Under the pieces are notes generated by a model. It worked only from the letters and a program-made list of their open reading frames with translations. It was not told the origin of the DNA and did not search any database. Shown one piece after another: positions 263 to 22,923 of a stretch of 24,694 bases of DNA (position 1 is the stretch's first letter; each line of letters opens with the position of its first letter). The stretch comes from Azolla caroliniana (Eukaryota; Plantae; Polypodiophyta): the NCBI GenBank assembly GCA_043228905.1, contig JBHGNT010000453.1, forward strand, positions 1-24,694, read 5' to 3'. Position numbers and translations under genes: made by a program.

Positions 263-299
263 CATGGTGTCACATGTGACAACATTTGGTTAGGATCAC

Positions 300-2507: not shown

Positions 2508-2509
2508 TA

Positions 2510-2895
2510 TGTTATGATGTGGACCGTAAATCAACAAGCAAAATAGGCTGTGATGATACACAGAACAAAGATAAATAGAAAATAGCAAAATACATAGTAC
2601 ACAAGATTTACGTGGAAACCCTAAAACAGGGAAAACCACACACCGGCACACTTTCACTATGAAGAGAGGGAAGTACAAGAGAAAGGTTACAAGTCTCTGA
2701 AAAACAAAGAATACCCACTTATGGTTTTTGCAAGTTCCACTAAACTTTGTCGTCTCTCACTCACTTTCACTCTTGTTTGCTACCTTCTCTCTGTAGCTCG
2801 ACTATACTCAATCTACACAATTCTGCTACTTCATCTCCATAAAGTATGCCCTAACTCCATATATTTATAGATGGGAATAAGTTCTTATTAGATAA
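2510..2895 (-). mobile_element. Partial Copia-type LTR (LTR A, U5/R side) inserted into the Gypsy pol
   Basis: Gypsy homology stops abruptly at a TGTT terminus (2505 or 2510). The sequence acacaagatttacgtggaaaccct...gggaaaaccac resembles reverse-oriented Copia U5. Minus-strand TATA CTATAAATAT at 2861-2870. Cut off at 2895 by LTR B. Confidence 0.55.
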
Positions 2896-3084
2896 TGTAA
2901 AAAGATAAGTGCGGAAACGTATGCGGAAGACACAATAGTACACAGTTGGTTATCCGGAAGTACTACAATTAGATAAACACGAAGAATGTGGGGGGGGGGG
3001 GGAGAGAGAGAGACTGAGTGAGAGTGGACAACGAAACGAGTCTATTACAAAATGCTTAGTACATACAATGTGCTCAGTGAGCAC

Positions 3085-3092
3085 TATTTATA
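3085..3092 (-). promoter_or_regulatory. LTR B TATA box
   Basis: TATAAATA on the minus strand, downstream of the U3 region and upstream of a pyrimidine-rich leader. Confidence 0.55.
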
Positions 3093-3204
3093 CAAGTTCA
3101 CAAAAGGACTGACAGAAGTATTGACCAATACTTCAATGCTCTTAAAAGAGTCTTTCACACTAATTGCCTATATTAGGCCTATTTTCTAGAATAGGTCTAA
3201 TCAG

Positions 3205-3687
3205 CACGTGTGACGTTCCTCTGTCATCCGGATCTGACATTCGATTCGTCATCCAGATTTTGTGTTCGGCTTCTTCAGCCGATCCAGCATTCGGTCTGGA
3301 AATAAGACCTAGCCAACCGGAGCAACTCCGGTCTAACCTGTCGGTCCGGCCCATGTTGAGCTTCCTCGCTCAACAAATAATAATAATAATAGTCGTTAAT
3401 CAGCCGACTAATCGAATCTACTGTCTGAACTACATCCGACTGATCGACTTGACTGTCTTACCCACAAGTCGGACAGTCTAGTCGATTCGACTAGCCAACT
3501 TCTATGTCGACTATCCAGTCGGTCCAAGTAGCAGACTTTGTCATCGACCATTCGGTCAGCCTATCCCTCACTTGGTTCGTCCAACCAATATGGTCGACTA
3601 CCAAGTCGACTCGCTGATTGATTCGGCCAACCGACAAGACTTCGGTTGCCGACTTCTCCCATGAGGTCACCGACCTCTCCCATTAGG
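3205..3687. promoter_or_regulatory. LTR U3 cluster of CCGAC (DRE/CRT-core) motifs plus a G-box
   Basis: CCGAC/GTCGG at 3340, 3404, 3436, 3468, 3518, 3631, 3649 and 3670. GTCGAC at 3506, 3593 and 3605. CACGTG at 3205 and TGACG at 3211. An 18-bp direct repeat at 3649 and 3670. Confidence 0.45.
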
Positions 3688-3705
3688 AGGGATAGAATCC
3701 TAGCA

Positions 3706-3722
3706 AACTCCCACTTCACTCC
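3706..3722 (-). other. Polypurine tract of the Copia element
   Basis: Minus strand GGAGTGAAGTGGGAGTT lies between the end of RNase H coding and the TG of the LTR. Confidence 0.7.
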
Positions 3723-3726
3723 TATA

Positions 3727-4972
3727 GGGAGAGTTTGCCAATCTTGTCTTATGTTGACAAACTCTGAGTCTGTCCATAGGGAGGGTTTTCGTGAGCATGT
3801 CGGAGCCATTATCATCAGTATGGATCTTCATAAGGGTAAATCTTCCTCATCCACTTTCTCTTGTAAACAGTGATACCTTCTTTGTATATGCTTGGTCCGG
3901 GTGTGGTAAGCAACGTTCTTGGCTAGATGTATGGCACTTTGTTTATCATAGTGGAGTAGGAATTTTTCTTGTATCATTCCTAATTCATTGAGAAAATTCT
4001 TCATCCATATCAACTCTTTCCCTGCCTCTATCGTAGCCATATATTCTGCCTTCGTGGTAGACAAAGCCACAACTTTTTGCAATCTCGATTGCCATGACAT
4101 AGTTCCCCCTGCATAGGTCATCACATAACCTGAAGTGGATCGACTGGAGTCTATATCCCCTAACATGTTTGAGTCGATAAAACCTTCCACCATAGGTTTT
4201 TCGAGACCATACTTAAGGCATACCCTTGAGGTGCCTTTCAAATATTTGAGTATCCATTTCACATCTACCCAATGTTCTCTTCTTGGATTACTTATATATC
4301 AGCTTACTATTCCAACCGCAAATGGTATGTCTGGTCTCGTATAGACCACATCATACATCAAACTGCCAACGATTGAGGCATATGGTACTTTCCTCATCTC
4401 GGCCTTGTCCTTTTCACTTTTCGAACATTGCTTAGCATTCAACTTGCAATTTTTCCGCAATGCAGACACGACCAATTTTGCTTCCGACATGTTAAATCTT
4501 TCCAGAACTTTTGTCACATACTTCTCTTTGACAAACATAGCACATTCTTAGTTTTGTCTTGAACTATGTGCATCCCCAATATTTTCTTTGTCGGTCCAAG
4601 ATCTTTCATGGAAAATGACTTGCCTAGTGCTTTCTTCAAGCTCGCAATCTTCTTGGTGTCTTGTCCGAGCACTAACATGTCATCCACATATAGCAAGAGA
4701 ATCAAGAAGTCGCCTTCATTATACCTTTTGACAAACACACAATGATCAACTTATGTTTTATGGAATCCATGTTCCAACATGAAGGATTTGAACTTCTTAT
4801 ACCATTGGCGTGAAGCTTGCTTCAGACCATACAAGCTTTTCTTCAGTCGACACACCAAATTCTCTTTTCCTTTCTCCTCAAAACCTTTGGGTTGCTGCAT
4901 GTAGATCTCTTCATCTAATTCCCCATGCCAGAGTGCTATTTTGACATCCAATTGCTCTATTTCCAGATTCAT
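3727..4972 (-). mobile_element. Ty1/Copia (Tnt1-like) RT-RNase H pseudogene, 5'-truncated at ~4972
   Basis: [67 protein letters not shown], RNase H GDIDSSRSTSGY, STTKAEY, RTKHI and KIHTDDNGSDMLTK, broken by stops and frameshifts. Confidence 0.95.
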
Positions 4973-5227
4973 AGAATACGTGTAGAATATGTTAAATACT
5001 TCTTTAATTTTAATTATCTTTTTCAATTTAAAAAAAAATAAATTCCATATTTGTTTTTGAAATTTTAAATACTTGTTAAATACGTAGAATATCTCACATT
5101 CTTAAAATACATAGAATACATGAAAATATGGAAAAATGGTAGTCCTAAAACGTAGAATACGTGTGGAACATTTCAAAGTATTCTAAAACGTATTCTAAAC
5201 GTAGAATACAAGTTTTTAACAACTATG
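4970..5227. mobile_element. AT-rich DNA-transposon-like end (hAT/MITE-like) with subterminal repeats; also at 11922-12179 and 18874-19131
   Basis: Repeated (C)GTAGAATAC/TATTCTA motifs in both orientations. Ends in TTTTAACAACTATG (reverse complement CATAGTTGTTAAAA), which resembles a hAT-type terminus. No TSD or full partner TIR seen. Confidence 0.35.
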
Positions 5228-5607
5228 CCTTATTTAAACATCGAGAATCAGTGCTTTGAAATATGAATATCTCTTCTTAGGAAGGAGACATACATCCAAA
5301 AAAATTTTGTACTTAGGTTCCATGGGTCAATATTGGCCTGTCTATGGACACAAAAAATATCTATCTATTTAGCCTCCTCGAACATTGTCAAATAGGATTG
5401 GAGACTTCCCCTTACTACAATGTAGGCTAAATGTGCCACAAAGATGTATTTGTGGAAGGCAAATTTTGACCCTTGCACCTTTAATTTAAGTACAATGCAT
5501 TGTATTTACCAATTGGGTAACTAGTATTGAGTGTTTAATTTCTAATTAATACATAGTCAAAAACCACTAAAACAAAGCCACACTCACAAATCCATGACCC
5601 ATCCTTT

Positions 5608-5853
5608 CTGGTTCAAGTCCTCTCTCGTCTGGCTCATATTTCCTTTGCGCATGTATAACTTCGCGACAACGTTGGCTATATGAGTATAACAATTACAACT
5701 CCCTACAATAGGTTTGGTGGCCTTGCGTAACTGGTTCAAGTCCTCTCTAGTCTTCCTCGCATTTCCTTTGTGCACATATAACGTTGTGACAACGTTGGCT
5801 ATATGAATATAACAACAAAAACTCGCTAAAATAAGTTTGGTGGCCTCACTTAA
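5608..5853 (+). repeat. Diverged 2 x 123-bp tandem duplication; also at 12560-12805 and 19512-19757
   Basis: CTGGTTCAAGTCCTCTCT starts at 5608 and 5731. Both copies end GTTTGGTGGCCT...TAA. Confidence 0.9.
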
Positions 5854-5880
5854 TTAGCTATTGCATTTTATGAGTTAAAC

Positions 5881-6239
5881 CCTTCTTAGTCAATTTGCTA
5901 CTAGATGTGTATATTAGTTAATGAAAAAATATTCGAAACAATTCTAGCTAATTTGCTACTAAATGTCCTCTCTTAACTAATTAGATACTAGACATTATAC
6001 TTTGCCAAACTAGTCTTAACTAATTAGCTATTAACTATCAGTTGTAGGATGTGTATATGTTGGCTAAGATAGCCTTCTTAGTCAATTCGCTACTAGATGT
6101 GTATATTAGTTAATGAAAAACTATTCGAAACAATTCTAGCTAATTTGCTTCTAAATGTCCTCTCTTAATTAGTTAGATACTAGACATTATCACTTTGCCG
6201 AAGTAGCCTTAACTAATTAGCTATTACCTGTTAGTTGTA
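5881..6239 (+). repeat. Diverged ~192-bp tandem duplication (~1.9 copies); also at 12833-13191 and 19785-20143
   Basis: CCTTCTTAGTCAATT.GCTACTAGATGTG starts at 5881 and 6073, with internal TAATTAGCTA/TAATTTGCTA sub-repeats. Confidence 0.9.
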
Positions 6240-8302
6240 TTAGAGTGGCAAATTCCACGTTCGTTGCGAGATGTGCAATGTTTTTTAGGATTCGCAAATT
6301 TCTATCGCAAGTTTATATAGGACTACTCAAAGCTTATTTTGCCGCTCACACAACTTACAAAGAAGGGGCAATAATTTGTTTGGACAAAGGAAGCGGACAC
6401 GACTTTTGAGGGTCTCAAGAAAGCATTTACATCGGCTCCTATTCTAACTCATGTTGATCCGCAAAAACCATTCATCAATGAGGCAAGCGTGTTAGATTTT
6501 GCCCTCGGTAGTATTTTGTCACATCAAGGGGACGATGAGAAGGCTTTTTTTAGAAGGATATCCTCATCAAGTCACTGTATTTAGTGATCACAAGAATCTT
6601 GCCTACTTCCAGAATGCTTGCATATTAAATAGACGACAAGCTCGGTGGGCCCCGTTCCTCACTCGTTTCGACTTCAAGATTACATATCGTCCGGGCAAGC
6701 AATGGGGGAAGGTAGATGCATTATCACGACGCTCATATCTAGCTTGTCATCCTGGTGATCCGACCTTCGACAATCAAAAGCAAGTAATCCTGGGACCGAC
6801 ACAACTTCAAGCAACATGGGTTTTTGACACTCAATTGGATTCCCGCATTATCGATACCATACACGAAGATTTGAAGTCAGATGTTTTCGCTCAAGCTATT
6901 GTAGATCAAATTGATCCCTCTTGGGCATCTTGTTCATGGTCACCACAACCAGGTACAGATTGTCGACAATTCCAATGTCACGATGGATTACTCTTATTTA
7001 AGAAACTTTTGTATGTTCCCAATGGTTCATGTCGCCTTTGAATAGTACAAAATTGTCATGACACATACCCAACCAGACATTTTGGTAGTACTAAAACGTT
7101 GGATTTAGTATAACGATCATTTTGGTGGCCTTATATGCGAAGATTTGTCGAAGACTATGTTCGGACATGTGATACATGTTGTAGAGCGAAGATGCCTAGG
7201 AATCATCCACATGGTTTGTTGGAGCCATTACCGATCCCAAGCAAACCGTGACAATCTATTCCTCTGGATTTTATCACAGATCTTCTAGATTCGAAGGGCT
7301 TTAATGCGATCTTAATAGTGGTAGATTGATATACTAAGATGGCACATTTTGTGCCCTGTACTAAAGAAATCATGGTCTTCCCGACAGGAATTGTTATGCG
7401 TGAAGTATTTCGGCATCATGGTCTTCCCAATAGTATCATCAATGATCGTGGACCTCAATTCGTCTCTAAATTTTGGAAGCATCTCTTCAAAATGCTCAAG
7501 GTCACCTGCAATCTCTCCTTCGGCTACCATCCCCAAACAGATGCACAAGCAGAATGTACCAATCAAATGCTGGAATAGTATCTTCGGTGTTTCCTAAGCT
7601 ATCAACAAGATGATTGGATAGATATTCTCCACTTTGTTGAATTTTCTTATAATAATTTTATCCACTCCTCTACTAGGGTTACACCATTCTATGCTTATAT
7701 AGGCTATCATCCTTGTTGGTGTGCAAAACTCCTGAGTTCCCCACAAATCCTAGTGCAGAGGATCATTTGGGGTGGCTACGACGAATTCAGGTAGAACTAT
7801 CTACCCACCTACATCACACCCAACAAACACTGAAGGATTATGCGGATCGTCATTAGCTTCCATCCTATTTTGGTATTGGAGATAGAGTATGGCTATTATG
7901 ACGACACATCAAGATTACTCGACCATGTGACAAACTGGATTATCGACGGTTAGGCCCTTTCCGTATTAACGAAAAAATTAGTGATGTCACTTTTTGCCTA
8001 GATCTACCTCTGCAACTACGGATACATCTGGTATTTCATATTCTCTTCTAGAACCCTATCAAGACAACACTATTCCCAATCGTATTATACCACCTCCACC
8101 CCCGATCGAATTTGAAGATGGACATGAGTACGAGGTTGCTGCCATCCTCGATTCCAAGATTGTTCACAACAAGCTCTACAATTTGGTCTATTGGCTAGGC
8201 TATAGTCTAAGCAAGCATACTTGGGAACCAATAGAGAATGTGGTCAATGCTCGAGCACTTCTTGAAAATTTCCATCGTCAATTTCCAGACAAACCAGGTC
8301 CT
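6237..8302 (+). mobile_element. Chromovirus (Ty3/Gypsy, Tcn1-like) pol 3' half: RT end, RNase H, integrase, chromodomain; pseudogene (unit 1)
   Basis: [35 protein letters not shown], zinc finger CHD...HFG...CDTC, LDFITDL, NDRGPQFVSKFW, HPQTDAQAE, LGPF, and chromodomain EYEVAAILDSK...YWLGY...TWEP...FHRQFPDKPGP. Multiple stops. Confidence 0.95.
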
Positions 8303-8537
8303 TGTGTGCACATCTTATCTTAATACACCCATTCTTCTCTAATAATCTCGTTCCTTTCTTCTTCTATTCTCTTTATATCCTTCTTCCATCACTCTATCTT
8401 TTACACTATTCCGATAGTTTGATTTGAGTTTATTTGAGAATACTTGTATGTCTCTATTTAAAGGTTCCTATAGAATAGTCTAGATATTTTTGTAATGTTC
8501 TAGAATGTTCTAGACCTATAATATTCTTGTCATGATA
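8303..8537. mobile_element. Gypsy LTR-like fragment; also at 15255-15489 and 22207-22441
   Basis: TTCTAGAATGTTCTAGA repeats, a minus-strand TATA-like CTTTAAATAG, and a terminus GTCATGATA (decayed TGACA). No PPT after the chromodomain, so orientation is uncertain. Confidence 0.4.
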
Positions 8538-8619
8538 TGGCATGGTATGGCTCCAAAAGGATTTCAACCCATGACCTCATGTTACATGGGTTGAACCCCT
8601 ACCATTAAACTATGCATTG
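8538..8619 (-). pseudogene. tRNA-derived sequence (SINE head or tRNA pseudogene); also at 15490-15571 and 22442-22523
   Basis: Minus strand has A-box TAGTTTAATGGTA (8612-8600) and GAGGTCATGGGTTGAAATCC with a B-box one mismatch from GGTTCRANNCC (8569-8559), at tRNA-like spacing. The cloverleaf stems do not pair properly. Confidence 0.6.
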
Positions 8620-8702
8620 TAATACAAAAAATATTATTTTCATTGTTAGTCTTAAGCTTCTTAGTTGTTCTTGTATCTTTCTTCATATAATATACTTCTT
8701 GG

Positions 8703-8711
8703 TGTCATCAT

Positions 8712-8742
<31 letters not shown>

Positions 8743-8959
8743 CTTCTCTCGTGAGTTCCACACACTCCCTTCCTCTTATTACTAATCCTCATAGTACTTT
8801 CCTCCTCTATCTCTAGTACGAATTCCCTCTATGTCTTTAGTACTATTCTTGACAATTCTAAGATGTTCTAGGATATTCTAGAACATTCTAGAATGTTCTA
8901 GACTTTTACAATGATCAATATATATTATTAAAGGTAGCTTTTATTATTTTTATATGACA
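8703..8959. mobile_element. Short solo-LTR-like segment TGTCAT...ATGACA; also at 15655-15911 and 22607-22863
   Basis: 6-bp inverted termini, an internal (CT)n and TTCTAGAACATTCTAGAATGTTCTAGA repeats. Flanks CTTGG and ATAAG are not a TSD. Confidence 0.4.
8716..8742 (+). repeat. (CT)13 microsatellite; also at 15668-15694 and 22620-22646
   Basis: Direct reading. Same length in all three units. Confidence 0.9.
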
Positions 8960-9019
8960 ATAAGCTATCTTAATGGTTCAAGTCCAGGTGAAGCCATGAT
9001 GTTCATGTCATGTTTTAAC

Positions 9020-10925
9020 ATTTGTTTGATTACCAAATGGAGGAAAACTTTTTTATGATGAATGTAGAGGTTAAATGTAATAATTTCTCAAAAACAAAAC
9101 CTAAAAACCTAAAAACCTAAAAGCAAAACCACCAATGAGTGTTTTTCTAGAACTAACACATATGTGGCTTTAATATTCTTAACTCGGTAGGAATAAAAGT
9201 TTTCAATTGCATTGGAAACAAAGCAAATGCTAAAACATTATGGAATAAACTTGAAACTTGATCATCTTTTAAGACATGTAATAATAAGTTGTGTTCGCTT
9301 AGGAAAACCACGTACTTGACTTACAAAGAGTTTAACTCCATTTCTGATCAATTGAATCAATTGTTTGGCATGCATGTTAAACTTGATGATAATATTCTTG
9401 CTCTTTGGTTGCTTAACATACTTCCTACTTTGTGGGAAATGTTTAGACTCATGTCAAGTTGACTAATGCTACTCACAATGGAACCATGCATCCAATAGTA
9501 ATAAAGAATAGACGGGGTGTAGATGATAGAGCTTATCATGTTAATGTAAAACTAAATCTAAAACCACAAATCCAGTAGTAATCATCAACAAATGGGTGAA
9601 GATGATAGAACTCATTGTGTTAATGCAACTTCTTTAAATGAGTGGCTTGTTTTTTATGATGAGAACATGATAAATTTTGCTTGCCAGGGAATTGATTGGG
9701 TTGTTGACAATAATGGATAATTTCATATCAATGATAAAAAAGAGTTAGTTCTTCACATCCTATACTTGACACTTTGGAGTCATGAAGGTAAATGATGGAC
9801 AATCAAAGGTAGTAGATACCATAATTGTTTATTTGGAGTCCAACTCAAGAGCAAGTTGATCCGCAAGGAGTTGAAGTATGTACAAATATAAGGTAACCTT
9901 TTATCTCCAAAGGTAAGTTAGATGATAATGTACATTTGCATATCTTTAATGAGGGTCAATGGAAGTACATTCAAAGTTCCTAGCTGGTGGCTCATGATAA
10001 GAAATCTTCTATTTTTTGAAAGCCTCTACTTCAACAAATCTTGTAAATGTGATTGAAAGCACATGCATATAAAAATAATGAAATAAAAGGTTGTCTCACA
10101 TTCGCATGAACTTTGCATCACAAATCTTTTGCAAGTGAGGCTTTGAATACCATTACATATGTTATTGGTATATTTCCTATTATTGCACTATACAGTGATG
10201 TTCCTACTATTTCATTGTAGTTTGGTATGGTAAGGATGTTTCTTATGGTCATTTACATGTGCTTGGTTGTAATTTTTTTGTGTAGGAACATAACGATGAA
10301 AGGTCTAAGAAGAATTTGGTTGTAAACTTATATGTATTATGAGTCATGAAAAATAAGCTTATTAGGAGGCATAATGTAGGTTGAGGATCAAACCATTTAA
10401 ATTATTGACAAGGTCAAAGAAATTCCTACAACTGACAATGCTACAGATGGAGATGTTTCTCAACAAGAGTAAGAACATGAGGATGTTAGTGAGCCATGAT
10501 AGGTTAATGCTAATCACAATATTGTTTTATTACAAATACATGTTAACAAGGGGGAGTGAACATAATTACAAGAGGTGATTAATAAACAAGCTAGAAGGTC
10601 TACCACAAGAACAGACAACCATCCATGAAGTATTTTAGTTTTGATTGTATATTAATTATTGAAGATCTATAGACTTTTAATATTGTGCAAGGCCAGAAAG
10701 ATAAAGATAGCTGGATAAAAGTTATGCATGATGAGATTAACTCTTTGAGAATGAATATAGCATCTTTGTGTTAGTTGACTTTTAATAATGGGGAGGGCCA
10801 GAAAGATAAAGATAGTTGGATAAAAGTTATGCATGATGAAATTAACTCTTTTTGAGGGAGAATAACACCTTTGAGTTAGTTAGTTCTTAACGGAAGAAAC
10901 GCTTTGAAAAGTAAGTGGATTGTTA
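9020..10925 (+). mobile_element. Heavily decayed Ty1/Copia gag-PR-INT-(RT start) remnant (unit 1)
   Basis: Gag ANAKTLWNKLET, NNKL...YKEFNSISDQLNQL and KLDDNILALWLLNILPTLWEMFR. Protease-like DWVVDNNG*FHI. Integrase EALNT and VWYGKDVSYGHLHVLGC, DERSK. RT-leader WIKVMHDEINSL, ENNTFELV and NALKSKWI. Large internal deletions. Confidence 0.8.
10691..10895 (+). repeat. ~105-bp local duplication within the Copia remnant; also at 17643-17847
   Basis: GGCCAGAAAGATAAAGATAG.TGGATAAAAGTTATGCATGATGA at 10691 and 10796. Confidence 0.85.
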
Positions 10926-11018
10926 ATTATGTGCATGTTAGTATGCCATGTAGTATTTGTTTGAACTTCGAACAGTTACATTGGGTTTGAATTCTATGAT
11001 TCAATGTATTCATCCAAG

Positions 11019-11924
11019 TTAAAGGCGTAGGAAGAGAGACCTAAGGACCGACCCAAGGAGAGCATTGTCATCCTTCAAATACTCCTCATACACTCGCACA
11101 CAATAGGCTTGCCTGCTTTTCAACTCTTCCTCGGAAATCGCCCGGAGTGCCGGCAGTATGCTGCCCATTTCCGTCGTCCCGAACCTCAACGCGCACCGAC
11201 CCCACTTGATCATCAACTTGCCATTTCCCAATGGCTCCACGTAATTGTCGGCCACGATAACTGGGATCGTTCCGGCGCTCATCACCTCAATGATCCTATA
11301 GGACGATGACGACCTCCCCGCTGGTGCTAGGCCAAAGGTCGAATTCATTAGCTCCTCGTACGTGTACTTCCTGAATGTGGCCTCATCATCATCGCACCCG
11401 GCATTCAGATGCGGACATCGTATGCGAATCCTGTTGTTTGTCGGCTGATTGCACGAGACCACAACTATCACATCCCGCCCATTGTGTAAGGAGCGGAACG
11501 ACGGATCACCGCGGAAATTGCCTTCCTTGTTTCCGATATAGCGTGTGCCTTGGAATGTAAGGAAATATTTGCGCGCCCGGGGTGGGAGCGGTGCGAGATG
11601 CCGGAAGTGAGACAGGCCAGGCAACGGGATGGCGACGTCGAATCCAGGGCGAAATGACGTCAGCTCAAGACACGATGCGGCGATAGAGGCCATTCCAATG
11701 GAGGCAGGATTGGCAATGATATCTGTGTGCAACTTGTCGGCCAAGGATGTGATCACGTGATTTAATCCCCCGTTCCAATGCGGCAAAGAGCGAAACGGGC
11801 GTCGCCATTCTTCCGAGAGCTCGAGCAGGAGTGGAACAAGGAGAATGCATGCAGACTCCGGATCATCTAATTCCCCATGCCAGAGTGCTATTTTGACATC
11901 CAATTGCTCTATTTCCAGATTCAT
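11019..11924 (-). CDS. Chimeric ORF, 301 aa from the first ATG: ~20 aa Copia RT stub fused to an N-truncated exostosin-family (GT47, EXT1-like) glycosyltransferase
   Basis: [20 protein letters not shown] (Copia RT), then DPESACILLVP, HWNGGLNHV, FRPGFDVAIPL, RKYFLTFQGTRY, LHNGRDVIVVVSC, NSTFGLAPAGR, SYRIIEVMSAGTIPVIVAD, matching exostosin motifs. Open and intronless. The ORF track start at 11978 is a TTG. Confidence 0.8.
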   Translation of the reverse strand: MNLEIEQLDVKIALWHGELDDPESACILLVPLLLELSEEWRRPFRSLPHWNGGLNHVITSLADKLHTDIIANPASIGMASIAASCLELTSFRPGFDVAIPLPGLSHFRHLAPLPPRARKYFLTFQGTRYIGNKEGNFRGDPSFRSLHNGRDVIVVVSCNQPTNNRIRIRCPHLNAGCDDDEATFRKYTYEELMNSTFGLAPAGRSSSSYRIIEVMSAGTIPVIVADNYVEPLGNGKLMIKWGRCALRFGTTEMGSILPALRAISEEELKSRQAYCVRVYEEYLKDDNALLGSVLRSLFLRL

Positions 11925-13188
11925 AGAATACGTGTAGAATATGTTAAATACTTCTTTAATTTTAATTATCTTTTTCAATTTAAAAAAAAATAAATTCCAT
12001 ATTTGTTTTTGAAATTTTAAATACTTGTTAAATACGTAGAATATCTCACATTCTTAAAATACATAGAATACATGAAAATATGGAAAAATGGTAGTCCTAA
12101 AACGTAGAATACGTGTGGAACATTTCAAAGTATTCTAAAACGTATTCTAAACGTAGAATACAAGTTTTTAACAACTATGCCTTATTTAAACATCGAGAAT
12201 CAGTGCTTTGAAATATGAATATCTCTTCTTAGGAAGGAGACATACATCCAAAAAAATTTTGTACTTAGGTTCCATGGGTCAATATTGGCCTGTCTATGGA
12301 CACAAAAAATATCTATCTATTTAGCCTCCTCGAACATTGTCAAATAGGATTGGAGACTTCCCCTTACTACAATGTAGGCTAAATGTGCCACAAAGATGTA
12401 TTTGTGGAAGGCAAATTTTGACCCTTGCACCTTTAATTTAAGTACAATGCATTGTATTTACCAATTGGGTAACTAGTATTGAGTGTTTAATTTCTAATTA
12501 ATACATAGTCAAAAACCACTAAAACAAAGCCACACTCACAAATCCATGACCCATCCTTTCTGGTTCAAGTCCTCTCTCGTCTGGCTCATATTTCCTTTGC
12601 GCATGTATAACTTCGCGACAACGTTGGCTATATGAGTATAACAATTACAACTCCCTACAATAGGTTTGGTGGCCTTGCGTAACTGGTTCAAGTCCTCTCT
12701 AGTCTTCCTCGCATTTCCTTTGTGCACATATAACGTTGTGACAACGTTGGCTATATGAATATAACAACAAAAACTCGCTAAAATAAGTTTGGTGGCCTCA
12801 CTTAATTAGCTATTGCATTTTATGAGTTAAACCCTTCTTAGTCAATTTGCTACTAGATGTGTATATTAGTTAATGAAAAAATATTCGAAACAATTCTAGC
12901 TAATTTGCTACTAAATGTCCTCTCTTAACTAATTAGATACTAGACATTATACTTTGCCAAACTAGTCTTAACTAATTAGCTATTAACTATCAGTTGTAGG
13001 ATGTGTATATGTTGGCTAAGATAGCCTTCTTAGTCAATTCGCTACTAGATGTGTATATTAGTTAATGAAAAACTATTCGAAACAATTCTAGCTAATTTGC
13101 TTCTAAATGTCCTCTCTTAATTAGTTAGATACTAGACATTATCACTTTGCCGAAGTAGCCTTAACTAATTAGCTATTACCTGTTAGTT

Positions 13189-15254
13189 GTATTAGAGTGG
13201 CAAATTCCACGTTCGTTGCGAGATGTGCAATGTTTTTTAGGATTCGCAAATTTCTATCGCAAGTTTATATAGGACTACTCAAAGCTTATTTTGCCGCTCA
13301 CACAACTTACAAAGAAGGGGCAATAATTTGTTTGGACAAAGGAAGCGGACACGACTTTTGAGGGTCTCAAGAAAGCATTTACATCGGCTCCTATTCTAAC
13401 TCATGTTGATCCGCAAAAACCATTCATCAATGAGGCAAGCGTGTTAGATTTTGCCCTCGGTAGTATTTTGTCACATCAAGGGGACGATGAGAAGGCTTTT
13501 TTTAGAAGGATATCCTCATCAAGTCACTGTATTTAGTGATCACAAGAATCTTGCCTACTTCCAGAATGCTTGCATATTAAATAGACGACAAGCTCGGTGG
13601 GCCCCGTTCCTCACTCGTTTCGACTTCAAGATTACATATCGTCCGGGCAAGCAATGGGGGAAGGTAGATGCATTATCACGACGCTCATATCTAGCTTGTC
13701 ATCCTGGTGATCCGACCTTCGACAATCAAAAGCAAGTAATCCTGGGACCGACACAACTTCAAGCAACATGGGTTTTTGACACTCAATTGGATTCCCGCAT
13801 TATCGATACCATACACGAAGATTTGAAGTCAGATGTTTTCGCTCAAGCTATTGTAGATCAAATTGATCCCTCTTGGGCATCTTGTTCATGGTCACCACAA
13901 CCAGGTACAGATTGTCGACAATTCCAATGTCACGATGGATTACTCTTATTTAAGAAACTTTTGTATGTTCCCAATGGTTCATGTCGCCTTTGAATAGTAC
14001 AAAATTGTCATGACACATACCCAACCAGACATTTTGGTAGTACTAAAACGTTGGATTTAGTATAACGATCATTTTGGTGGCCTTATATGCGAAGATTTGT
14101 CGAAGACTATGTTCGGACATGTGATACATGTTGTAGAGCGAAGATGCCTAGGAATCATCCACATGGTTTGTTGGAGCCATTACCGATCCCAAGCAAACCG
14201 TGACAATCTATTCCTCTGGATTTTATCACAGATCTTCTAGATTCGAAGGGCTTTAATGCGATCTTAATAGTGGTAGATTGATATACTAAGATGGCACATT
14301 TTGTGCCCTGTACTAAAGAAATCATGGTCTTCCCGACAGGAATTGTTATGCGTGAAGTATTTCGGCATCATGGTCTTCCCAATAGTATCATCAATGATCG
14401 TGGACCTCAATTCGTCTCTAAATTTTGGAAGCATCTCTTCAAAATGCTCAAGGTCACCTGCAATCTCTCCTTCGGCTACCATCCCCAAACAGATGCACAA
14501 GCAGAATGTACCAATCAAATGCTGGAATAGTATCTTCGGTGTTTCCTAAGCTATCAACAAGATGATTGGATAGATATTCTCCACTTTGTTGAATTTTCTT
14601 ATAATAATTTTATCCACTCCTCTACTAGGGTTACACCATTCTATGCTTATATAGGCTATCATCCTTGTTGGTGTGCAAAACTCCTGAGTTCCCCACAAAT
14701 CCTAGTGCAGAGGATCATTTGGGGTGGCTACGACGAATTCAGGTAGAACTATCTACCCACCTACATCACACCCAACAAACACTGAAGGATTATGCGGATC
14801 GTCATTAGCTTCCATCCTATTTTGGTATTGGAGATAGAGTATGGCTATTATGACGACACATCAAGATTACTCGACCATGTGACAAACTGGATTATCGACG
14901 GTTAGGCCCTTTCCGTATTAACGAAAAAATTAGTGATGTCACTTTTTGCCTAGATCTACCTCTGCAACTACGGATACATCTGGTATTTCATATTCTCTTC
15001 TAGAACCCTATCAAGACAACACTATTCCCAATCGTATTATACCACCTCCACCCCCGATCGAATTTGAAGATGGACATGAGTACGAGGTTGCTGCCATCCT
15101 CGATTCCAAGATTGTTCACAACAAGCTCTACAATTTGGTCTATTGGCTAGGCTATAGTCTAAGCAAGCATACTTGGGAACCAATAGAGAATGTGGTCAAT
15201 GCTCGAGCACTTCTTGAAAATTTCCATCGTCAATTTCCAGACAAACCAGGTCCT
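13189..15254 (+). mobile_element. Chromovirus pol 3' half pseudogene (unit 2 copy)
   Basis: Copy of 6237-8302 at +6952. Confidence 0.95.
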
Positions 15255-15663
15255 TGTGTGCACATCTTATCTTAATACACCCATTCTTCTCTAATAATCT
15301 CGTTCCTTTCTTCTTCTATTCTCTTTATATCCTTCTTCCATCACTCTATCTTTTACACTATTCCGATAGTTTGATTTGAGTTTATTTGAGAATACTTGTA
15401 TGTCTCTATTTAAAGGTTCCTATAGAATAGTCTAGATATTTTTGTAATGTTCTAGAATGTTCTAGACCTATAATATTCTTGTCATGATATGGCATGGTAT
15501 GGCTCCAAAAGGATTTCAACCCATGACCTCATGTTACATGGGTTGAACCCCTACCATTAAACTATGCATTGTAATACAAAAAATATTATTTTCATTGTTA
15601 GTCTTAAGCTTCTTAGTTGTTCTTGTATCTTTCTTCATATAATATACTTCTTGGTGTCATCAT

Positions 15664-15694
<31 letters not shown>

Positions 15695-15971
15695 CTTCTC
15701 TCGTGAGTTCCACACACTCCCTTCCTCTTATTACTAATCCTCATAGTACTTTCCTCCTCTATCTCTAGTACGAATTCCCTCTATGTCTTTAGTACTATTC
15801 TTGACAATTCTAAGATGTTCTAGGATATTCTAGAACATTCTAGAATGTTCTAGACTTTTACAATGATCAATATATATTATTAAAGGTAGCTTTTATTATT
15901 TTTATATGACAATAAGCTATCTTAATGGTTCAAGTCCAGGTGAAGCCATGATGTTCATGTCATGTTTTAAC

Positions 15972-17877
15972 ATTTGTTTGATTACCAAATGGAGGAAAAC
16001 TTTTTTATGATGAATGTAGAGGTTAAATGTAATAATTTCTCAAAAACAAAACCTAAAAACCTAAAAACCTAAAAGCAAAACCACCAATGAGTGTTTTTCT
16101 AGAACTAACACATATGTGGCTTTAATATTCTTAACTCGGTAGGAATAAAAGTTTTCAATTGCATTGGAAACAAAGCAAATGCTAAAACATTATGGAATAA
16201 ACTTGAAACTTGATCATCTTTTAAGACATGTAATAATAAGTTGTGTTCGCTTAGGAAAACCACGTACTTGACTTACAAAGAGTTTAACTCCATTTCTGAT
16301 CAATTGAATCAATTGTTTGGCATGCATGTTAAACTTGATGATAATATTCTTGCTCTTTGGTTGCTTAACATACTTCCTACTTTGTGGGAAATGTTTAGAC
16401 TCATGTCAAGTTGACTAATGCTACTCACAATGGAACCATGCATCCAATAGTAATAAAGAATAGACGGGGTGTAGATGATAGAGCTTATCATGTTAATGTA
16501 AAACTAAATCTAAAACCACAAATCCAGTAGTAATCATCAACAAATGGGTGAAGATGATAGAACTCATTGTGTTAATGCAACTTCTTTAAATGAGTGGCTT
16601 GTTTTTTATGATGAGAACATGATAAATTTTGCTTGCCAGGGAATTGATTGGGTTGTTGACAATAATGGATAATTTCATATCAATGATAAAAAAGAGTTAG
16701 TTCTTCACATCCTATACTTGACACTTTGGAGTCATGAAGGTAAATGATGGACAATCAAAGGTAGTAGATACCATAATTGTTTATTTGGAGTCCAACTCAA
16801 GAGCAAGTTGATCCGCAAGGAGTTGAAGTATGTACAAATATAAGGTAACCTTTTATCTCCAAAGGTAAGTTAGATGATAATGTACATTTGCATATCTTTA
16901 ATGAGGGTCAATGGAAGTACATTCAAAGTTCCTAGCTGGTGGCTCATGATAAGAAATCTTCTATTTTTTGAAAGCCTCTACTTCAACAAATCTTGTAAAT
17001 GTGATTGAAAGCACATGCATATAAAAATAATGAAATAAAAGGTTGTCTCACATTCGCATGAACTTTGCATCACAAATCTTTTGCAAGTGAGGCTTTGAAT
17101 ACCATTACATATGTTATTGGTATATTTCCTATTATTGCACTATACAGTGATGTTCCTACTATTTCATTGTAGTTTGGTATGGTAAGGATGTTTCTTATGG
17201 TCATTTACATGTGCTTGGTTGTAATTTTTTTGTGTAGGAACATAACGATGAAAGGTCTAAGAAGAATTTGGTTGTAAACTTATATGTATTATGAGTCATG
17301 AAAAATAAGCTTATTAGGAGGCATAATGTAGGTTGAGGATCAAACCATTTAAATTATTGACAAGGTCAAAGAAATTCCTACAACTGACAATGCTACAGAT
17401 GGAGATGTTTCTCAACAAGAGTAAGAACATGAGGATGTTAGTGAGCCATGATAGGTTAATGCTAATCACAATATTGTTTTATTACAAATACATGTTAACA
17501 AGGGGGAGTGAACATAATTACAAGAGGTGATTAATAAACAAGCTAGAAGGTCTACCACAAGAACAGACAACCATCCATGAAGTATTTTAGTTTTGATTGT
17601 ATATTAATTATTGAAGATCTATAGACTTTTAATATTGTGCAAGGCCAGAAAGATAAAGATAGCTGGATAAAAGTTATGCATGATGAGATTAACTCTTTGA
17701 GAATGAATATAGCATCTTTGTGTTAGTTGACTTTTAATAATGGGGAGGGCCAGAAAGATAAAGATAGTTGGATAAAAGTTATGCATGATGAAATTAACTC
17801 TTTTTGAGGGAGAATAACACCTTTGAGTTAGTTAGTTCTTAACGGAAGAAACGCTTTGAAAAGTAAGTGGATTGTTA
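15972..17877 (+). mobile_element. Decayed Copia remnant (unit 2 copy)
   Basis: Copy of 9020-10925 at +6952. Confidence 0.8.
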
Positions 17878-17970
17878 ATTATGTGCATGTTAGTATGCCA
17901 TGTAGTATTTGTTTGAACTTCGAACAGTTACATTGGGTTTGAATTCTATGATTCAATGTATTCATCCAAG

Positions 17971-18876
17971 TTAAAGGCGTAGGAAGAGAGACCTAAGGAC
18001 CGACCCAAGGAGAGCATTGTCATCCTTCAAATACTCCTCATACACTCGCACACAATAGGCTTGCCTGCTTTTCAACTCTTCCTCGGAAATCGCCCGGAGT
18101 GCCGGCAGTATGCTGCCCATTTCCGTCGTCCCGAACCTCAACGCGCACCGACCCCACTTGATCATCAACTTGCCATTTCCCAATGGCTCCACGTAATTGT
18201 CGGCCACGATAACTGGGATCGTTCCGGCGCTCATCACCTCAATGATCCTATAGGACGATGACGACCTCCCCGCTGGTGCTAGGCCAAAGGTCGAATTCAT
18301 TAGCTCCTCGTACGTGTACTTCCTGAATGTGGCCTCATCATCATCGCACCCGGCATTCAGATGCGGACATCGTATGCGAATCCTGTTGTTTGTCGGCTGA
18401 TTGCACGAGACCACAACTATCACATCCCGCCCATTGTGTAAGGAGCGGAACGACGGATCACCGCGGAAATTGCCTTCCTTGTTTCCGATATAGCGTGTGC
18501 CTTGGAATGTAAGGAAATATTTGCGCGCCCGGGGTGGGAGCGGTGCGAGATGCCGGAAGTGAGACAGGCCAGGCAACGGGATGGCGACGTCGAATCCAGG
18601 GCGAAATGACGTCAGCTCAAGACACGATGCGGCGATAGAGGCCATTCCAATGGAGGCAGGATTGGCAATGATATCTGTGTGCAACTTGTCGGCCAAGGAT
18701 GTGATCACGTGATTTAATCCCCCGTTCCAATGCGGCAAAGAGCGAAACGGGCGTCGCCATTCTTCCGAGAGCTCGAGCAGGAGTGGAACAAGGAGAATGC
18801 ATGCAGACTCCGGATCATCTAATTCCCCATGCCAGAGTGCTATTTTGACATCCAATTGCTCTATTTCCAGATTCAT
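17971..18876 (-). CDS. Chimeric Copia-RT/exostosin (GT47) ORF, second copy
   Basis: Identical translation at +6952, spanning the unit 2/3 junction at 18814/18815. Confidence 0.8.
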   Translation of the reverse strand: MNLEIEQLDVKIALWHGELDDPESACILLVPLLLELSEEWRRPFRSLPHWNGGLNHVITSLADKLHTDIIANPASIGMASIAASCLELTSFRPGFDVAIPLPGLSHFRHLAPLPPRARKYFLTFQGTRYIGNKEGNFRGDPSFRSLHNGRDVIVVVSCNQPTNNRIRIRCPHLNAGCDDDEATFRKYTYEELMNSTFGLAPAGRSSSSYRIIEVMSAGTIPVIVADNYVEPLGNGKLMIKWGRCALRFGTTEMGSILPALRAISEEELKSRQAYCVRVYEEYLKDDNALLGSVLRSLFLRL

Positions 18877-20140
18877 AGAATACGTGTAGAATATGTTAAA
18901 TACTTCTTTAATTTTAATTATCTTTTTCAATTTAAAAAAAAATAAATTCCATATTTGTTTTTGAAATTTTAAATACTTGTTAAATACGTAGAATATCTCA
19001 CATTCTTAAAATACATAGAATACATGAAAATATGGAAAAATGGTAGTCCTAAAACGTAGAATACGTGTGGAACATTTCAAAGTATTCTAAAACGTATTCT
19101 AAACGTAGAATACAAGTTTTTAACAACTATGCCTTATTTAAACATCGAGAATCAGTGCTTTGAAATATGAATATCTCTTCTTAGGAAGGAGACATACATC
19201 CAAAAAAATTTTGTACTTAGGTTCCATGGGTCAATATTGGCCTGTCTATGGACACAAAAAATATCTATCTATTTAGCCTCCTCGAACATTGTCAAATAGG
19301 ATTGGAGACTTCCCCTTACTACAATGTAGGCTAAATGTGCCACAAAGATGTATTTGTGGAAGGCAAATTTTGACCCTTGCACCTTTAATTTAAGTACAAT
19401 GCATTGTATTTACCAATTGGGTAACTAGTATTGAGTGTTTAATTTCTAATTAATACATAGTCAAAAACCACTAAAACAAAGCCACACTCACAAATCCATG
19501 ACCCATCCTTTCTGGTTCAAGTCCTCTCTCGTCTGGCTCATATTTCCTTTGCGCATGTATAACTTCGCGACAACGTTGGCTATATGAGTATAACAATTAC
19601 AACTCCCTACAATAGGTTTGGTGGCCTTGCGTAACTGGTTCAAGTCCTCTCTAGTCTTCCTCGCATTTCCTTTGTGCACATATAACGTTGTGACAACGTT
19701 GGCTATATGAATATAACAACAAAAACTCGCTAAAATAAGTTTGGTGGCCTCACTTAATTAGCTATTGCATTTTATGAGTTAAACCCTTCTTAGTCAATTT
19801 GCTACTAGATGTGTATATTAGTTAATGAAAAAATATTCGAAACAATTCTAGCTAATTTGCTACTAAATGTCCTCTCTTAACTAATTAGATACTAGACATT
19901 ATACTTTGCCAAACTAGTCTTAACTAATTAGCTATTAACTATCAGTTGTAGGATGTGTATATGTTGGCTAAGATAGCCTTCTTAGTCAATTCGCTACTAG
20001 ATGTGTATATTAGTTAATGAAAAACTATTCGAAACAATTCTAGCTAATTTGCTTCTAAATGTCCTCTCTTAATTAGTTAGATACTAGACATTATCACTTT
20101 GCCGAAGTAGCCTTAACTAATTAGCTATTACCTGTTAGTT

Positions 20141-22206
20141 GTATTAGAGTGGCAAATTCCACGTTCGTTGCGAGATGTGCAATGTTTTTTAGGATTCGCA
20201 AATTTCTATCGCAAGTTTATATAGGACTACTCAAAGCTTATTTTGCCGCTCACACAACTTACAAAGAAGGGGCAATAATTTGTTTGGACAAAGGAAGCGG
20301 ACACGACTTTTGAGGGTCTCAAGAAAGCATTTACATCGGCTCCTATTCTAACTCATGTTGATCCGCAAAAACCATTCATCAATGAGGCAAGCGTGTTAGA
20401 TTTTGCCCTCGGTAGTATTTTGTCACATCAAGGGGACGATGAGAAGGCTTTTTTTAGAAGGATATCCTCATCAAGTCACTGTATTTAGTGATCACAAGAA
20501 TCTTGCCTACTTCCAGAATGCTTGCATATTAAATAGACGACAAGCTCGGTGGGCCCCGTTCCTCACTCGTTTCGACTTCAAGATTACATATCGTCCGGGC
20601 AAGCAATGGGGGAAGGTAGATGCATTATCACGACGCTCATATCTAGCTTGTCATCCTGGTGATCCGACCTTCGACAATCAAAAGCAAGTAATCCTGGGAC
20701 CGACACAACTTCAAGCAACATGGGTTTTTGACACTCAATTGGATTCCCGCATTATCGATACCATACACGAAGATTTGAAGTCAGATGTTTTCGCTCAAGC
20801 TATTGTAGATCAAATTGATCCCTCTTGGGCATCTTGTTCATGGTCACCACAACCAGGTACAGATTGTCGACAATTCCAATGTCACGATGGATTACTCTTA
20901 TTTAAGAAACTTTTGTATGTTCCCAATGGTTCATGTCGCCTTTGAATAGTACAAAATTGTCATGACACATACCCAACCAGACATTTTGGTAGTACTAAAA
21001 CGTTGGATTTAGTATAACGATCATTTTGGTGGCCTTATATGCGAAGATTTGTCGAAGACTATGTTCGGACATGTGATACATGTTGTAGAGCGAAGATGCC
21101 TAGGAATCATCCACATGGTTTGTTGGAGCCATTACCGATCCCAAGCAAACCGTGACAATCTATTCCTCTGGATTTTATCACAGATCTTCTAGATTCGAAG
21201 GGCTTTAATGCGATCTTAATAGTGGTAGATTGATATACTAAGATGGCACATTTTGTGCCCTGTACTAAAGAAATCATGGTCTTCCCGACAGGAATTGTTA
21301 TGCGTGAAGTATTTCGGCATCATGGTCTTCCCAATAGTATCATCAATGATCGTGGACCTCAATTCGTCTCTAAATTTTGGAAGCATCTCTTCAAAATGCT
21401 CAAGGTCACCTGCAATCTCTCCTTCGGCTACCATCCCCAAACAGATGCACAAGCAGAATGTACCAATCAAATGCTGGAATAGTATCTTCGGTGTTTCCTA
21501 AGCTATCAACAAGATGATTGGATAGATATTCTCCACTTTGTTGAATTTTCTTATAATAATTTTATCCACTCCTCTACTAGGGTTACACCATTCTATGCTT
21601 ATATAGGCTATCATCCTTGTTGGTGTGCAAAACTCCTGAGTTCCCCACAAATCCTAGTGCAGAGGATCATTTGGGGTGGCTACGACGAATTCAGGTAGAA
21701 CTATCTACCCACCTACATCACACCCAACAAACACTGAAGGATTATGCGGATCGTCATTAGCTTCCATCCTATTTTGGTATTGGAGATAGAGTATGGCTAT
21801 TATGACGACACATCAAGATTACTCGACCATGTGACAAACTGGATTATCGACGGTTAGGCCCTTTCCGTATTAACGAAAAAATTAGTGATGTCACTTTTTG
21901 CCTAGATCTACCTCTGCAACTACGGATACATCTGGTATTTCATATTCTCTTCTAGAACCCTATCAAGACAACACTATTCCCAATCGTATTATACCACCTC
22001 CACCCCCGATCGAATTTGAAGATGGACATGAGTACGAGGTTGCTGCCATCCTCGATTCCAAGATTGTTCACAACAAGCTCTACAATTTGGTCTATTGGCT
22101 AGGCTATAGTCTAAGCAAGCATACTTGGGAACCAATAGAGAATGTGGTCAATGCTCGAGCACTTCTTGAAAATTTCCATCGTCAATTTCCAGACAAACCA
22201 GGTCCT
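20141..22206 (+). mobile_element. Chromovirus pol 3' half pseudogene (unit 3 copy)
   Basis: Copy of 6237-8302 at +13904. Confidence 0.95.
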
Positions 22207-22615
22207 TGTGTGCACATCTTATCTTAATACACCCATTCTTCTCTAATAATCTCGTTCCTTTCTTCTTCTATTCTCTTTATATCCTTCTTCCATCACTCTA
22301 TCTTTTACACTATTCCGATAGTTTGATTTGAGTTTATTTGAGAATACTTGTATGTCTCTATTTAAAGGTTCCTATAGAATAGTCTAGATATTTTTGTAAT
22401 GTTCTAGAATGTTCTAGACCTATAATATTCTTGTCATGATATGGCATGGTATGGCTCCAAAAGGATTTCAACCCATGACCTCATGTTACATGGGTTGAAC
22501 CCCTACCATTAAACTATGCATTGTAATACAAAAAATATTATTTTCATTGTTAGTCTTAAGCTTCTTAGTTGTTCTTGTATCTTTCTTCATATAATATACT
22601 TCTTGGTGTCATCAT

Positions 22616-22646
<31 letters not shown>

Positions 22647-22923
22647 CTTCTCTCGTGAGTTCCACACACTCCCTTCCTCTTATTACTAATCCTCATAGTA
22701 CTTTCCTCCTCTATCTCTAGTACGAATTCCCTCTATGTCTTTAGTACTATTCTTGACAATTCTAAGATGTTCTAGGATATTCTAGAACATTCTAGAATGT
22801 TCTAGACTTTTACAATGATCAATATATATTATTAAAGGTAGCTTTTATTATTTTTATATGACAATAAGCTATCTTAATGGTTCAAGTCCAGGTGAAGCCA
22901 TGATGTTCATGTCATGTTTTAAC

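What the first reader, a model, noticed from the sequence alone, without database searches (positions are those of the whole stretch)
11019..11924. Array junction creates an in-frame Copia-RT::exostosin chimeric gene
Seen: the unit starts inside the Copia RT (4911) and ends inside an exostosin gene (11862). On the minus strand the parental Copia reads GGG GAA TTA GAT GAA GAG (GELDEE). The junction reads GGG GAA TTA GAT GAT CCG GAG (GELDDPE). The fusion is in frame and an internal RT methionine (ATG at 11924) becomes the first ATG, giving an uninterrupted 301-aa ORF at every junction (second copy 17971-18876). The parental Copia allele is still visible at 4751-4972. Established: GT47 enzymes are normally type II Golgi/ER membrane proteins. 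Inference: this is a new-gene birth caught with one parent intact, encoding an anchorless GT47 that lacks the start of the domain. It may be untranscribed, inactive, interfering, or a silencing trigger for the native gene. In-frame fusion has about a 1-in-3 chance, so selection is not implied.
Basis: partly seen in the sequence, partly recalled or inferred. Interest (0 to 1): 0.8.

Follow-up and report, generated by a model that had tools for sequence, protein, structure and literature searches.

The report
Young tandem amplification makes chance fusion
A 7-kb stretch of what is likely a fern chromosome is repeated head-to-tail without a single difference, likely about five times on one of the two chromosome copies, and each seam joins a scrap of dead jumping gene in frame to the back two-thirds of a sugar-transferase gene; the seam is real DNA, but the hybrid is likely a silent by-product of an ordinary kind of rearrangement.

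Summary
Observation confirmed; not an assembly artefact. The window is a whole unplaced contig: 4,910 bp of flank plus 2.85 identical copies of a 6,952-bp unit. It is the second haplotype (99.6%) of a chromosome stretch on C9, where the unit is single and the intronless 425-aa EXT1-like GT47 gene is whole. Short-read contigs bridge the junction in 3 of 4 runs laid on it, from two studies (2017, 2024); a third study's genotype is single-copy. Depth 54:107:163 and one-sided allele choice point to about five copies on one haplotype, both native genes intact. The seam is a 5-bp microhomology. The 301-aa ORF is real, but 26-32% of random breakpoints here would also give an in-frame ATG. The Copia donor is a promoterless relic, and the product loses the anchor, a conserved Cys motif and the first strand. 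No expression data were available. Verdict: a young microhomology-joined amplification with a likely passive chimeric ORF, a new member of a known kind. The scan has noted such junction ORFs before in bacterial genomes.

The parts
1..4910 (.). Single-copy left flank of the array; allelic to G000:C9 2511569-2506662 (second haplotype)
   Evidence: blastn 99.6% collinear; 19 of the 37 SNPs lie here
3433..4973 (-). Decayed Ty1/Copia relic (3' half of RT and RNase H); 5' part and 5' LTR missing; donor of the chimera's N-terminus
   Evidence: RVT_2 at 4751-4972; homology to other Copia copies stops at 4970-4973; frames broken by stops
4911..11862 (.). Repeat unit 1 (6,952 bp)
11863..18814 (.). Repeat unit 2, identical to unit 1
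18815..24694 (.). Repeat unit 3, cut by the contig end after 5,880 bp
   Evidence: window is the whole contig C453
11863..11867 (-). 5-bp microhomology at junction 1 (GATGA on the coding strand); same at 18815-18819
   Evidence: chance of 5 or more about 0.004 for random local breakpoints
11019..11924 (-). Chimeric ORF 1, 301 aa: codons 1-19 Copia RT, 20-21 shared, 22-301 = native exostosin 146-425
17971..18876 (-). Chimeric ORF 2, identical
11019..11867 (-). 3' two-thirds of the intronless EXT1-like GT47 gene; 4 SNPs against C9 (3 silent, 1 Ser/Gly)
11924..12179 (.). High-copy AT-rich dispersed repeat directly upstream of the chimeric ATG (4972-5227 in unit 1); it, not Copia, forms the would-be promoter and leader
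   Evidence: 1,040 first-look candidates, 40 scored, 76-82% identity at dispersed sites
5228..5371 (.). Second short dispersed repeat
   Evidence: 930 candidates, 40 scored
6241..8323 (+). Decayed chromodomain-bearing Ty3/Gypsy fragment (RNase H, integrase-like, chromodomain)
   Evidence: RT_RNaseH and Chromo hits; 83% to another copy on C9; longest open frame 181 aa
8316..8978 (.). Nested dispersed repeats, LTR-like by position (not proven)
   Evidence: 3,493 candidates, 40 scored

Best explanation
The window holds a perfect head-to-tail repeat of a 6,952-bp chromosome segment joined at a 5-base microhomology; it likely arose as a recent error-prone repair or template-switch duplication on one haplotype, likely grew to about five copies by recombination between the identical units, and the in-frame Copia::exostosin ORF at each seam is likely a silent or inert by-product. 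Step 1 (junction shown, pathway inferred): a break inside the exostosin gene was joined to a point 6,952 bp downstream inside a dead Copia through GATGA, the signature of polymerase-theta end joining or microhomology-mediated template switching. Step 2 (inferred): once two identical 7-kb units existed, unequal sister exchange or re-replication raised the number; all seams are identical, so the junction formed once. Step 3 (geometry plus depth): the array is flank-U1...Un-native 5' end, so the last unit still carries a whole gene and native gene dosage is unchanged. Step 4 (inferred): the hybrid ORF inherits no promoter, and any protein would stay in the cytosol without anchor, luminal disulfides or the first Rossmann strand, away from Golgi acceptors.
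For: Real DNA: junction contigs in 3 of 4 runs laid, two studies. Copy number: X3 contig depths 53.9 (unique flank), 107 (junction), 162.9 and 150.3 (unit), about 52 for the native path by arithmetic, i.e. 2: 3.97: 6.04: 1.92. One haplotype: sample S1 shows both alleles in the flanks (X7 1-422 and X3 9537-9879 identical to C9; X3 1-999 with 7 differences; both alleles at 696 in X7) but the window allele in 24 of 24 site-by-run cells at the 8 listed single-copy SNP sites inside the unit (21 separate bubbles). Polymorphic: X4 (other genotype, other study) has one contig across the native site (1364-2130) and inside/outside depth ratios of 0.83 and 0.95. Young: 0 differences in 12,832 paired positions (95% bound 0.023%) against 0.31% between haplotypes. 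Microhomology 5 bp, P about 0.004; 61.8% of 204 Arabidopsis tsk-4 tandem-duplication junctions show microhomology and they first appear heterozygous (PMC13031928 section 8). Chance frame 26-32%. No promoter inherited: Copia homology ends 1 bp before the ATG; no TATA[AT]A[AT] in 600 nt upstream, 12 upstream ATGs, T at -3 and A at +4, whereas the native start has G at -3 and +4 and TATAAAA at -321. Lost parts: transmembrane helix (hydropathy peak 2.2 vs 1.3 at most in the chimera), 6 of 51 invariant or near-invariant columns including three Cys, strand 110-112 and three helices of the native model; the Copia residues 1-19 are modelled below pLDDT 50 and supply no strand. Nothing else intact is amplified: longest other open frame 181 aa.
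Against: Expression was not testable, so 'silent' is inferred. Contig depth is not a calibrated copy number, and depth alone fits 3+3 copies as well as 5+1; only allele choice separates them, and at two SNP sites inside high-copy repeats (L026 8244, 8337) the runs disagree; 140 rows of that table were not shown. In X5 the junction (2.3) is not deeper than the native path (2.9), though depth there is too low to judge. The rest of the chimera is modelled confidently (mean pLDDT 84.4) as an EXT1-like GT-B fold (Z 25.0, rmsd 2.8, 277 aligned) and keeps the donor-site residues matching EXT1 R340, R346 and E349 (PMC9178029 passages). In Drosophila 24 of 76 tandem-duplication chimeras were up-regulated (PMC5460883 section 7), although those carry a 5' gene's promoter, which this one lacks. 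Growth from 2 to about 5 copies could reflect selection, but no target is visible. Perfect identity of the copies could be partly due to consensus polishing.
Confidence: 0.75

Rival explanations
1. The array acts in trans on the native gene: promoterless truncated copies among transposon relics yield aberrant or antisense RNA and small RNAs that silence the native EXT1-like gene (and perhaps its 87%-identical paralogue), or the array's heterochromatin spreads into the last, intact copy.
For: About four extra truncated copies, 99.5-100% identical to the native 3' end, lie in tandem among high-copy repeats; repeat-induced silencing and cosuppression are established plant phenomena (recalled, no call).
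Against: No RNA or methylation data; the transposon surroundings of the gene's 3' end are the same on the unamplified haplotype, so only copy number is new.
Confidence: 0.12
2. A newborn functional gene: the upstream AT-rich repeat gives a cryptic promoter and a soluble cytosolic GT47 is made that glycosylates a new acceptor or poisons a complex.
For: Open 301-aa frame with ATG; C-terminal donor-binding subdomain and residues equivalent to EXT1 R340/R346/E349 retained; confident GT-B model; copy number rose.
Against: First strand, three conserved Cys and anchor lost; weak start context and 12 upstream ATGs; the fusion is expected by chance in about a quarter to a third of breakpoints; none of 17 further cluster members of the two nearest database proteins begins with the Copia peptide, and the exact chimera is not in the 15-billion collection, though neither is the exact native protein, so that blank is weak.
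Confidence: 0.03
3. Same junction, other architecture: the unit was excised as a 6,952-bp circle closed at GATGA and re-inserted as a rolling-circle concatemer at its own locus (or persists as a circle), or the copies are split 3+3 over both haplotypes and collapsed in C9.
For: A single identical junction and a jump to several identical copies are what rolling-circle amplification gives; depth 2:4:6 fits 3+3.
Against: The contig joins unique flank to unit 1 without a seam, so the array is chromosomal in the assembly; 24 of 24 in-unit cells take the window allele, unlike the mixed flanks. Re-integration at the home locus cannot be told from unequal exchange by sequence alone.
Confidence: 0.09
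4. Assembly or library artefact (unrolled loop, chimeric read, amplification concatemer).
For: The window is a short unplaced contig with perfectly identical copies, and the chromosome assembly shows one copy.
Against: Junction words are in short-read contigs of X1, X3 (2024) and X5 (2017, another study), and unit depth is three times flank depth in X3.
Confidence: 0.01

Closest known systems
Microhomology-joined tandem duplications in plants (polymerase-theta signature; Arabidopsis tsk-4 study, PMC13031928, passages and section 8 read)
   Same: Head-to-tail duplication with a clean microhomology seam, size within the reported <1 kb to 1.5 Mb range, present on one haplotype, heritable.
   Different: Here in a presumably repair-proficient, likely fern genome and expanded to about five copies rather than two; the pathway is inferred from the seam only.
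Chimeric genes at tandem-duplication junctions segregating in Drosophila (PMC4069613 passages; PMC5460883 abstract and section 7)
   Same: Both breakpoints in coding sequence in parallel orientation give a junction ORF with both parents left in place; such chimeras are about 10% of gene-capturing duplications (78 in D. yakuba, 38 in D. simulans) and polymorphic.
   Different: There the 5' partner is a gene that donates its promoter; here it is a promoterless retrotransposon relic giving 19 codons, so it is closer to a 3' gene fragment with recruited upstream sequence.
Exostosin GT47 domain (human EXT1; EXTL3 structure paper PMC9178029, passages read) and its single-domain relatives in ferns, lycophytes, bryophytes and Ginkgo
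   Same: Native gene: type II anchor, Cys motif, GT-B fold, EXT1-type donor-site residues; best solved match EXT1 (E 8e-33).
   Different: The plant proteins lack the GT64 domain; the chimera also lacks the anchor, stem, Cys motif and first strand. Substrate of the plant clade is unknown from what I read; two Marchantia GT47 clade G proteins without angiosperm orthologues localise to the Golgi (PMC12398305 passage), but I did not test whether this gene is clade G.

Membership tests
Microhomology-mediated tandem duplication/amplification | Head-to-tail copies of a segment that is single in an allelic reference | tested here: met
Microhomology-mediated tandem duplication/amplification | Short homology shared by both breakpoints, no inserted bases | tested here: met
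   5 bp, P about 0.004
Microhomology-mediated tandem duplication/amplification | Junction and raised depth in raw data | tested here: met
   junction in 3 of 4 runs laid; threefold depth in X3
Microhomology-mediated tandem duplication/amplification | Dependence on polymerase theta or another named pathway | not testable with these tools
   inferred from the seam only
Chimeric gene (new gene) | In-frame ORF from two parental coding sequences | tested here: met
Chimeric gene (new gene) | 5' parent supplies a promoter | tested here: not met
   Copia homology ends 1 bp before the ATG; upstream is an unrelated dispersed repeat
Chimeric gene (new gene) | Transcribed and translated | not testable with these tools
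   no RNA run holding the stretch could be laid
Chimeric gene (new gene) | Maintained by selection or shared across lineages | tested here: inconclusive
   copies identical, so no signal can exist yet; not seen in genotype X4
GT47 exostosin family (chimera) | Pfam PF03016 above cut-off | tested here: met
   81.5 bits vs 33.4, but only profile 92-282; native covers 4-286
GT47 exostosin family (chimera) | Type II membrane anchor | tested here: not met
   native helix 17-35 absent from the chimera
GT47 exostosin family (chimera) | Complete N-terminal Rossmann subdomain with Cys motif | tested here: not met
   strand 110-112, three helices and C89/C94/C100 (P0001 numbering) lost
GT47 exostosin family (chimera) | C-terminal donor site with EXT1 R340/E349 equivalents | tested here: met
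   R327 and E336 of P0001, inside the retained part
GT47 exostosin family (chimera) | Glycosyltransferase activity | not testable with these tools
   needs an assay

The most novel reading that the evidence does not exclude
A gene-fragment amplicon still expanding in a living plant line: about four promoterless Copia::GT47 copies on one haplotype are transcribed from the adjacent repeat and either silence the native EXT1-like glycosyltransferase in trans or make a soluble cytosolic GT47, giving a natural knock-down or neomorph of a heparan-polymerase-like plant clade whose substrate is unknown.
Probability: 0.1. Interest if true: 0.6.

Novelty: new member of a known kind. Interest (0 to 1): 0.25.

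Why it matters
As it most likely stands it is a clean, dated example of how plant genomes make raw chimeric ORFs: one microhomology seam, both parents in view, amplified on one haplotype and missing from the chromosome-level assembly, which is a practical warning that unplaced contigs can hold real heterozygous copy-number variants. It gives a ready junction marker for the line that carries it. If the copies proved transcribed or silencing, the amplified and single-copy genotypes would form a natural pair for probing the EXT1-like GT47 clade of seed-free plants.

Tried and rejected
No RNA holder listed for window 10900-12500; not used as evidence on expression. The long-range joint was not among the joints shown (56 rows hidden); the narrower lay showed it directly. 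My first reading of depth as three copies on a haploid chromosome was dropped once both alleles appeared in the flanks. The idea that the Copia peptide replaces the lost first strand found no support in the model; the model was built with full-length relatives in the alignment, so its high confidence elsewhere does not show stability. Searches of G000 found no contig with the array's other end: the native 5' part matches only C9 and its paralogue. Two short pieces of 9182-9899, which look like decayed Copia gag-pol by eye, gave no Pfam hit. Paper search 'exostosin + copia + fusion + tandem duplication' gave 0 papers; searches showed no description of this locus in the listings; this covers only the open library. 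No earlier scan note matched the protein. No complex prediction was run: no binding claim is made. Supplements were not opened.

Full report
1. What is in the window. The window is the whole of an unplaced contig, G000:C453, in a 523-Mb assembly of 1,503 contigs. It consists of 4,910 bp of single sequence followed by 2.846 copies of a 6,952-bp unit; beyond position 4910 there is no mismatch between adjacent copies. The minus-strand ORFs at 11019-11924 and 17971-18876 encode the same 301-aa protein. Pfam places residues 45-252 in Exostosin_GT47 (profile 92-282 of 293) and the frame at 4751-4972 in RVT_2.

2. The parents. Window 1-11867 is collinear with chromosome contig C9 2511569-2499703 at 99.6%: 37 SNPs (24 transitions, 13 transversions) and three microsatellite-length differences, spread over flank and unit alike. 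That is the pattern of an allele, not of errors. On C9 the unit is single and runs on into the rest of an intronless 425-aa gene (C9:2499274-2500551) with an N-terminal hydrophobic helix. A paralogue lies 190 kb away (82% protein identity; dS 0.31, dN 0.10, omega 0.32 over 412 codons), so the native gene family is under moderate purifying selection. The nearest named relatives are fern proteins (Adiantum, Ceratopteris, 48-52%), then mosses, liverworts, lycophytes and Ginkgo; in a 25-row tree the gene falls in an 11-row group whose named rows are all ferns, with support 88/98, below the starred level. The best solved relative is human EXT1 (E 8e-33). The Copia partner is a relic: its likeness to other Copia copies covers 3433-4973 and ends 1 bp before the ATG, its frame stops after 73 codons, and an unrelated high-copy AT-rich repeat sits directly upstream. 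The Met is Copia's own (5 of 6 relatives).

3. The seam. Both breakpoints share five bases, GATGA on the coding strand, with nothing inserted; five or more would arise by chance about 0.4% of the time. Hence codons 1-19 are Copia-only, 20-21 are shared, and 22-301 equal native 146-425, with three silent SNPs and one Ser/Gly difference.

4. Is it real? Twenty-one runs were listed and six were laid. On the junction, X3 has a 55-nt contig over 11838-11892 at depth 107 without a difference, X1 a 653-nt contig through it, and X5, from another study of 2017, the same 55-nt contig at depth 2.3 beside the native and Copia paths; X2 has a gap there. S1 (X1, X3, X7) may be the sample the assembly came from, so X5 is the independent witness; it may well be the same line sampled seven years earlier, which shows stability, not a second origin. 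On the C9 stretch X3 has depth 48-54 outside the unit and 141-152 inside, and its contig breaks exactly at the microhomology. X4, a different genotype from a third study, runs through the native site in one contig with flat depth. The array is therefore real and polymorphic.

5. How many copies, on which chromosome? In X3 flank, junction, unit and native path stand as 53.9: 107: 162.9: about 52, or 2: 3.97: 6.04: 1.92 (the last by arithmetic on a depth bin). This fits either three copies on both haplotypes or five on one and one on the other. Sample S1 shows both alleles in the flanks, chosen differently from run to run, but inside the unit all 24 site-by-run cells at the eight listed single-copy SNP sites carry the window allele (seven separate bubbles in each of three runs). 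That favours five copies on the window's haplotype. Caveats: contig depth is not a calibrated copy number, two SNP sites inside high-copy repeats disagree between runs, and 140 rows were hidden. The native path at about twice the single-haplotype depth means both haplotypes still have a whole gene, as tandem geometry predicts for the last unit. No contig holds that far end. Zero differences in 12,832 paired positions put the copies at under 8% of the divergence between the haplotypes, unless polishing evened them out.

6. Is the ORF more than chance? Holding the exostosin breakpoint fixed and sliding the other over 7-29 kb of the real neighbourhood, 26-32% of positions give an in-frame ATG before a stop, and 10-16% give 19 or more extra codons. 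The start context is weak (T at -3, A at +4), there are 12 ATGs and no TATA-like match in the 600 nt upstream, while the native start has G at -3 and +4 and a TATAAAA at -321 (native upstream also has 12 ATGs, so that count alone does not discriminate). The Copia promoter is gone. Expression could not be tested.

7. What would the protein be? Against the native model (pLDDT 84.6) the chimera lacks the membrane helix, the stem, strand 110-112 and helices 91-94, 115-118 and 130-137 (P0001 numbering), and 6 of the 51 invariant or near-invariant columns of a 55-sequence alignment, among them C89, C94 and C100. The GT47 fold has only five strands per subdomain (PMC9178029, passages); that the first is an inner strand of a Rossmann sheet, and that these Cys form luminal disulfides, is recalled knowledge. 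The chimera model leaves residues 1-19 below pLDDT 50 but otherwise matches EXT1 (Z 25.0, rmsd 2.8, 277 aligned) and keeps the equivalents of EXT1 R340, R346 and E349. So the donor half is whole and the acceptor half is cut; without a signal anchor the product would be cytosolic. An unstable or idle protein is the likely result, but this is inference.

8. Mechanism. Shown: a single microhomology seam, identical units, heterozygous state, intact parents. Inferred: formation by polymerase-theta end joining or template switching, as for 61.8% of 204 tandem-duplication junctions in Arabidopsis tsk-4 plants, which also first appear on one allele (PMC13031928, section 8); then expansion by homologous exchange between units or by rolling-circle re-insertion. 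Nothing intact is amplified (longest other frame 181 aa), so dosage selection has no visible target.

9. Comparison with the known. Junction chimeras are a routine product of tandem duplication: 78 and 38 segregate in 20 lines each of two Drosophila species, about 10% of gene-capturing duplications (PMC4069613, passages), and 24 of 76 are up-regulated (PMC5460883, section 7), but those take a promoter from the 5' gene. This case works like that class and fails its promoter criterion. Earlier notes of this scan describe the same kind of seam ORF in bacteria (unchecked). I found no paper on this locus in the open library (and the listings).

10. Verdict. Observation confirmed and extended; interpretation partly supported. 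A real, young, likely five-copy, one-haplotype amplification whose seam happens to be in frame. New member of a known kind; interest 0.25. The open upside, about 10%, is an effect on the native EXT1-like gene or a translated soluble enzyme, which one RNA-seq experiment would settle.

Noticed in passing
G000:C9 2499274-2500551 and 2310426-2311658; C18 3.08-3.11 Mb; C1065 1340-2371: The native gene belongs to an intronless, single-domain GT47 clade closer to animal EXT1 than expected for a plant enzyme (E 8e-33), found here in ferns, lycophytes, bryophytes and Ginkgo; no flowering-plant name appeared among the 67 hits. The genome has at least five members, one with an internal stop. Substrate unknown.
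   Followed up: partly
window 4972-5227 (L031-L034 for relatives): High-copy AT-rich dispersed element built of short TAGAATAC-type subrepeats in both orientations, with one sharply conserved end; class not determined.
   Followed up: partly
protein P0051 (Adiantum nelumboides annotation): An annotated exostosin N-terminal part fused to a Copia RT at its C-terminus, next to an intact paralogue by locus number; probably a gene-model artefact over an insertion, the reverse order of the chimera studied here.
   Followed up: no
G000:C1065 versus C18:3109278-3110315: Another small unplaced contig carries a GT47 of the same score as a chromosomal copy but with a shorter open frame (433 vs 517); possibly a further haplotig.
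   Followed up: no
window 5608-5853, 5881-6239, 10672-10890: Older, diverged short tandem duplications (123, 192 and 105 bp spacing; 83-96% identity) inside the unit, also on C9: the region has duplicated locally before.
   Followed up: no
window 380-2508: A second, more decayed Ty3/Gypsy copy in the left flank, 77-83% like the one inside the unit.
   Followed up: no
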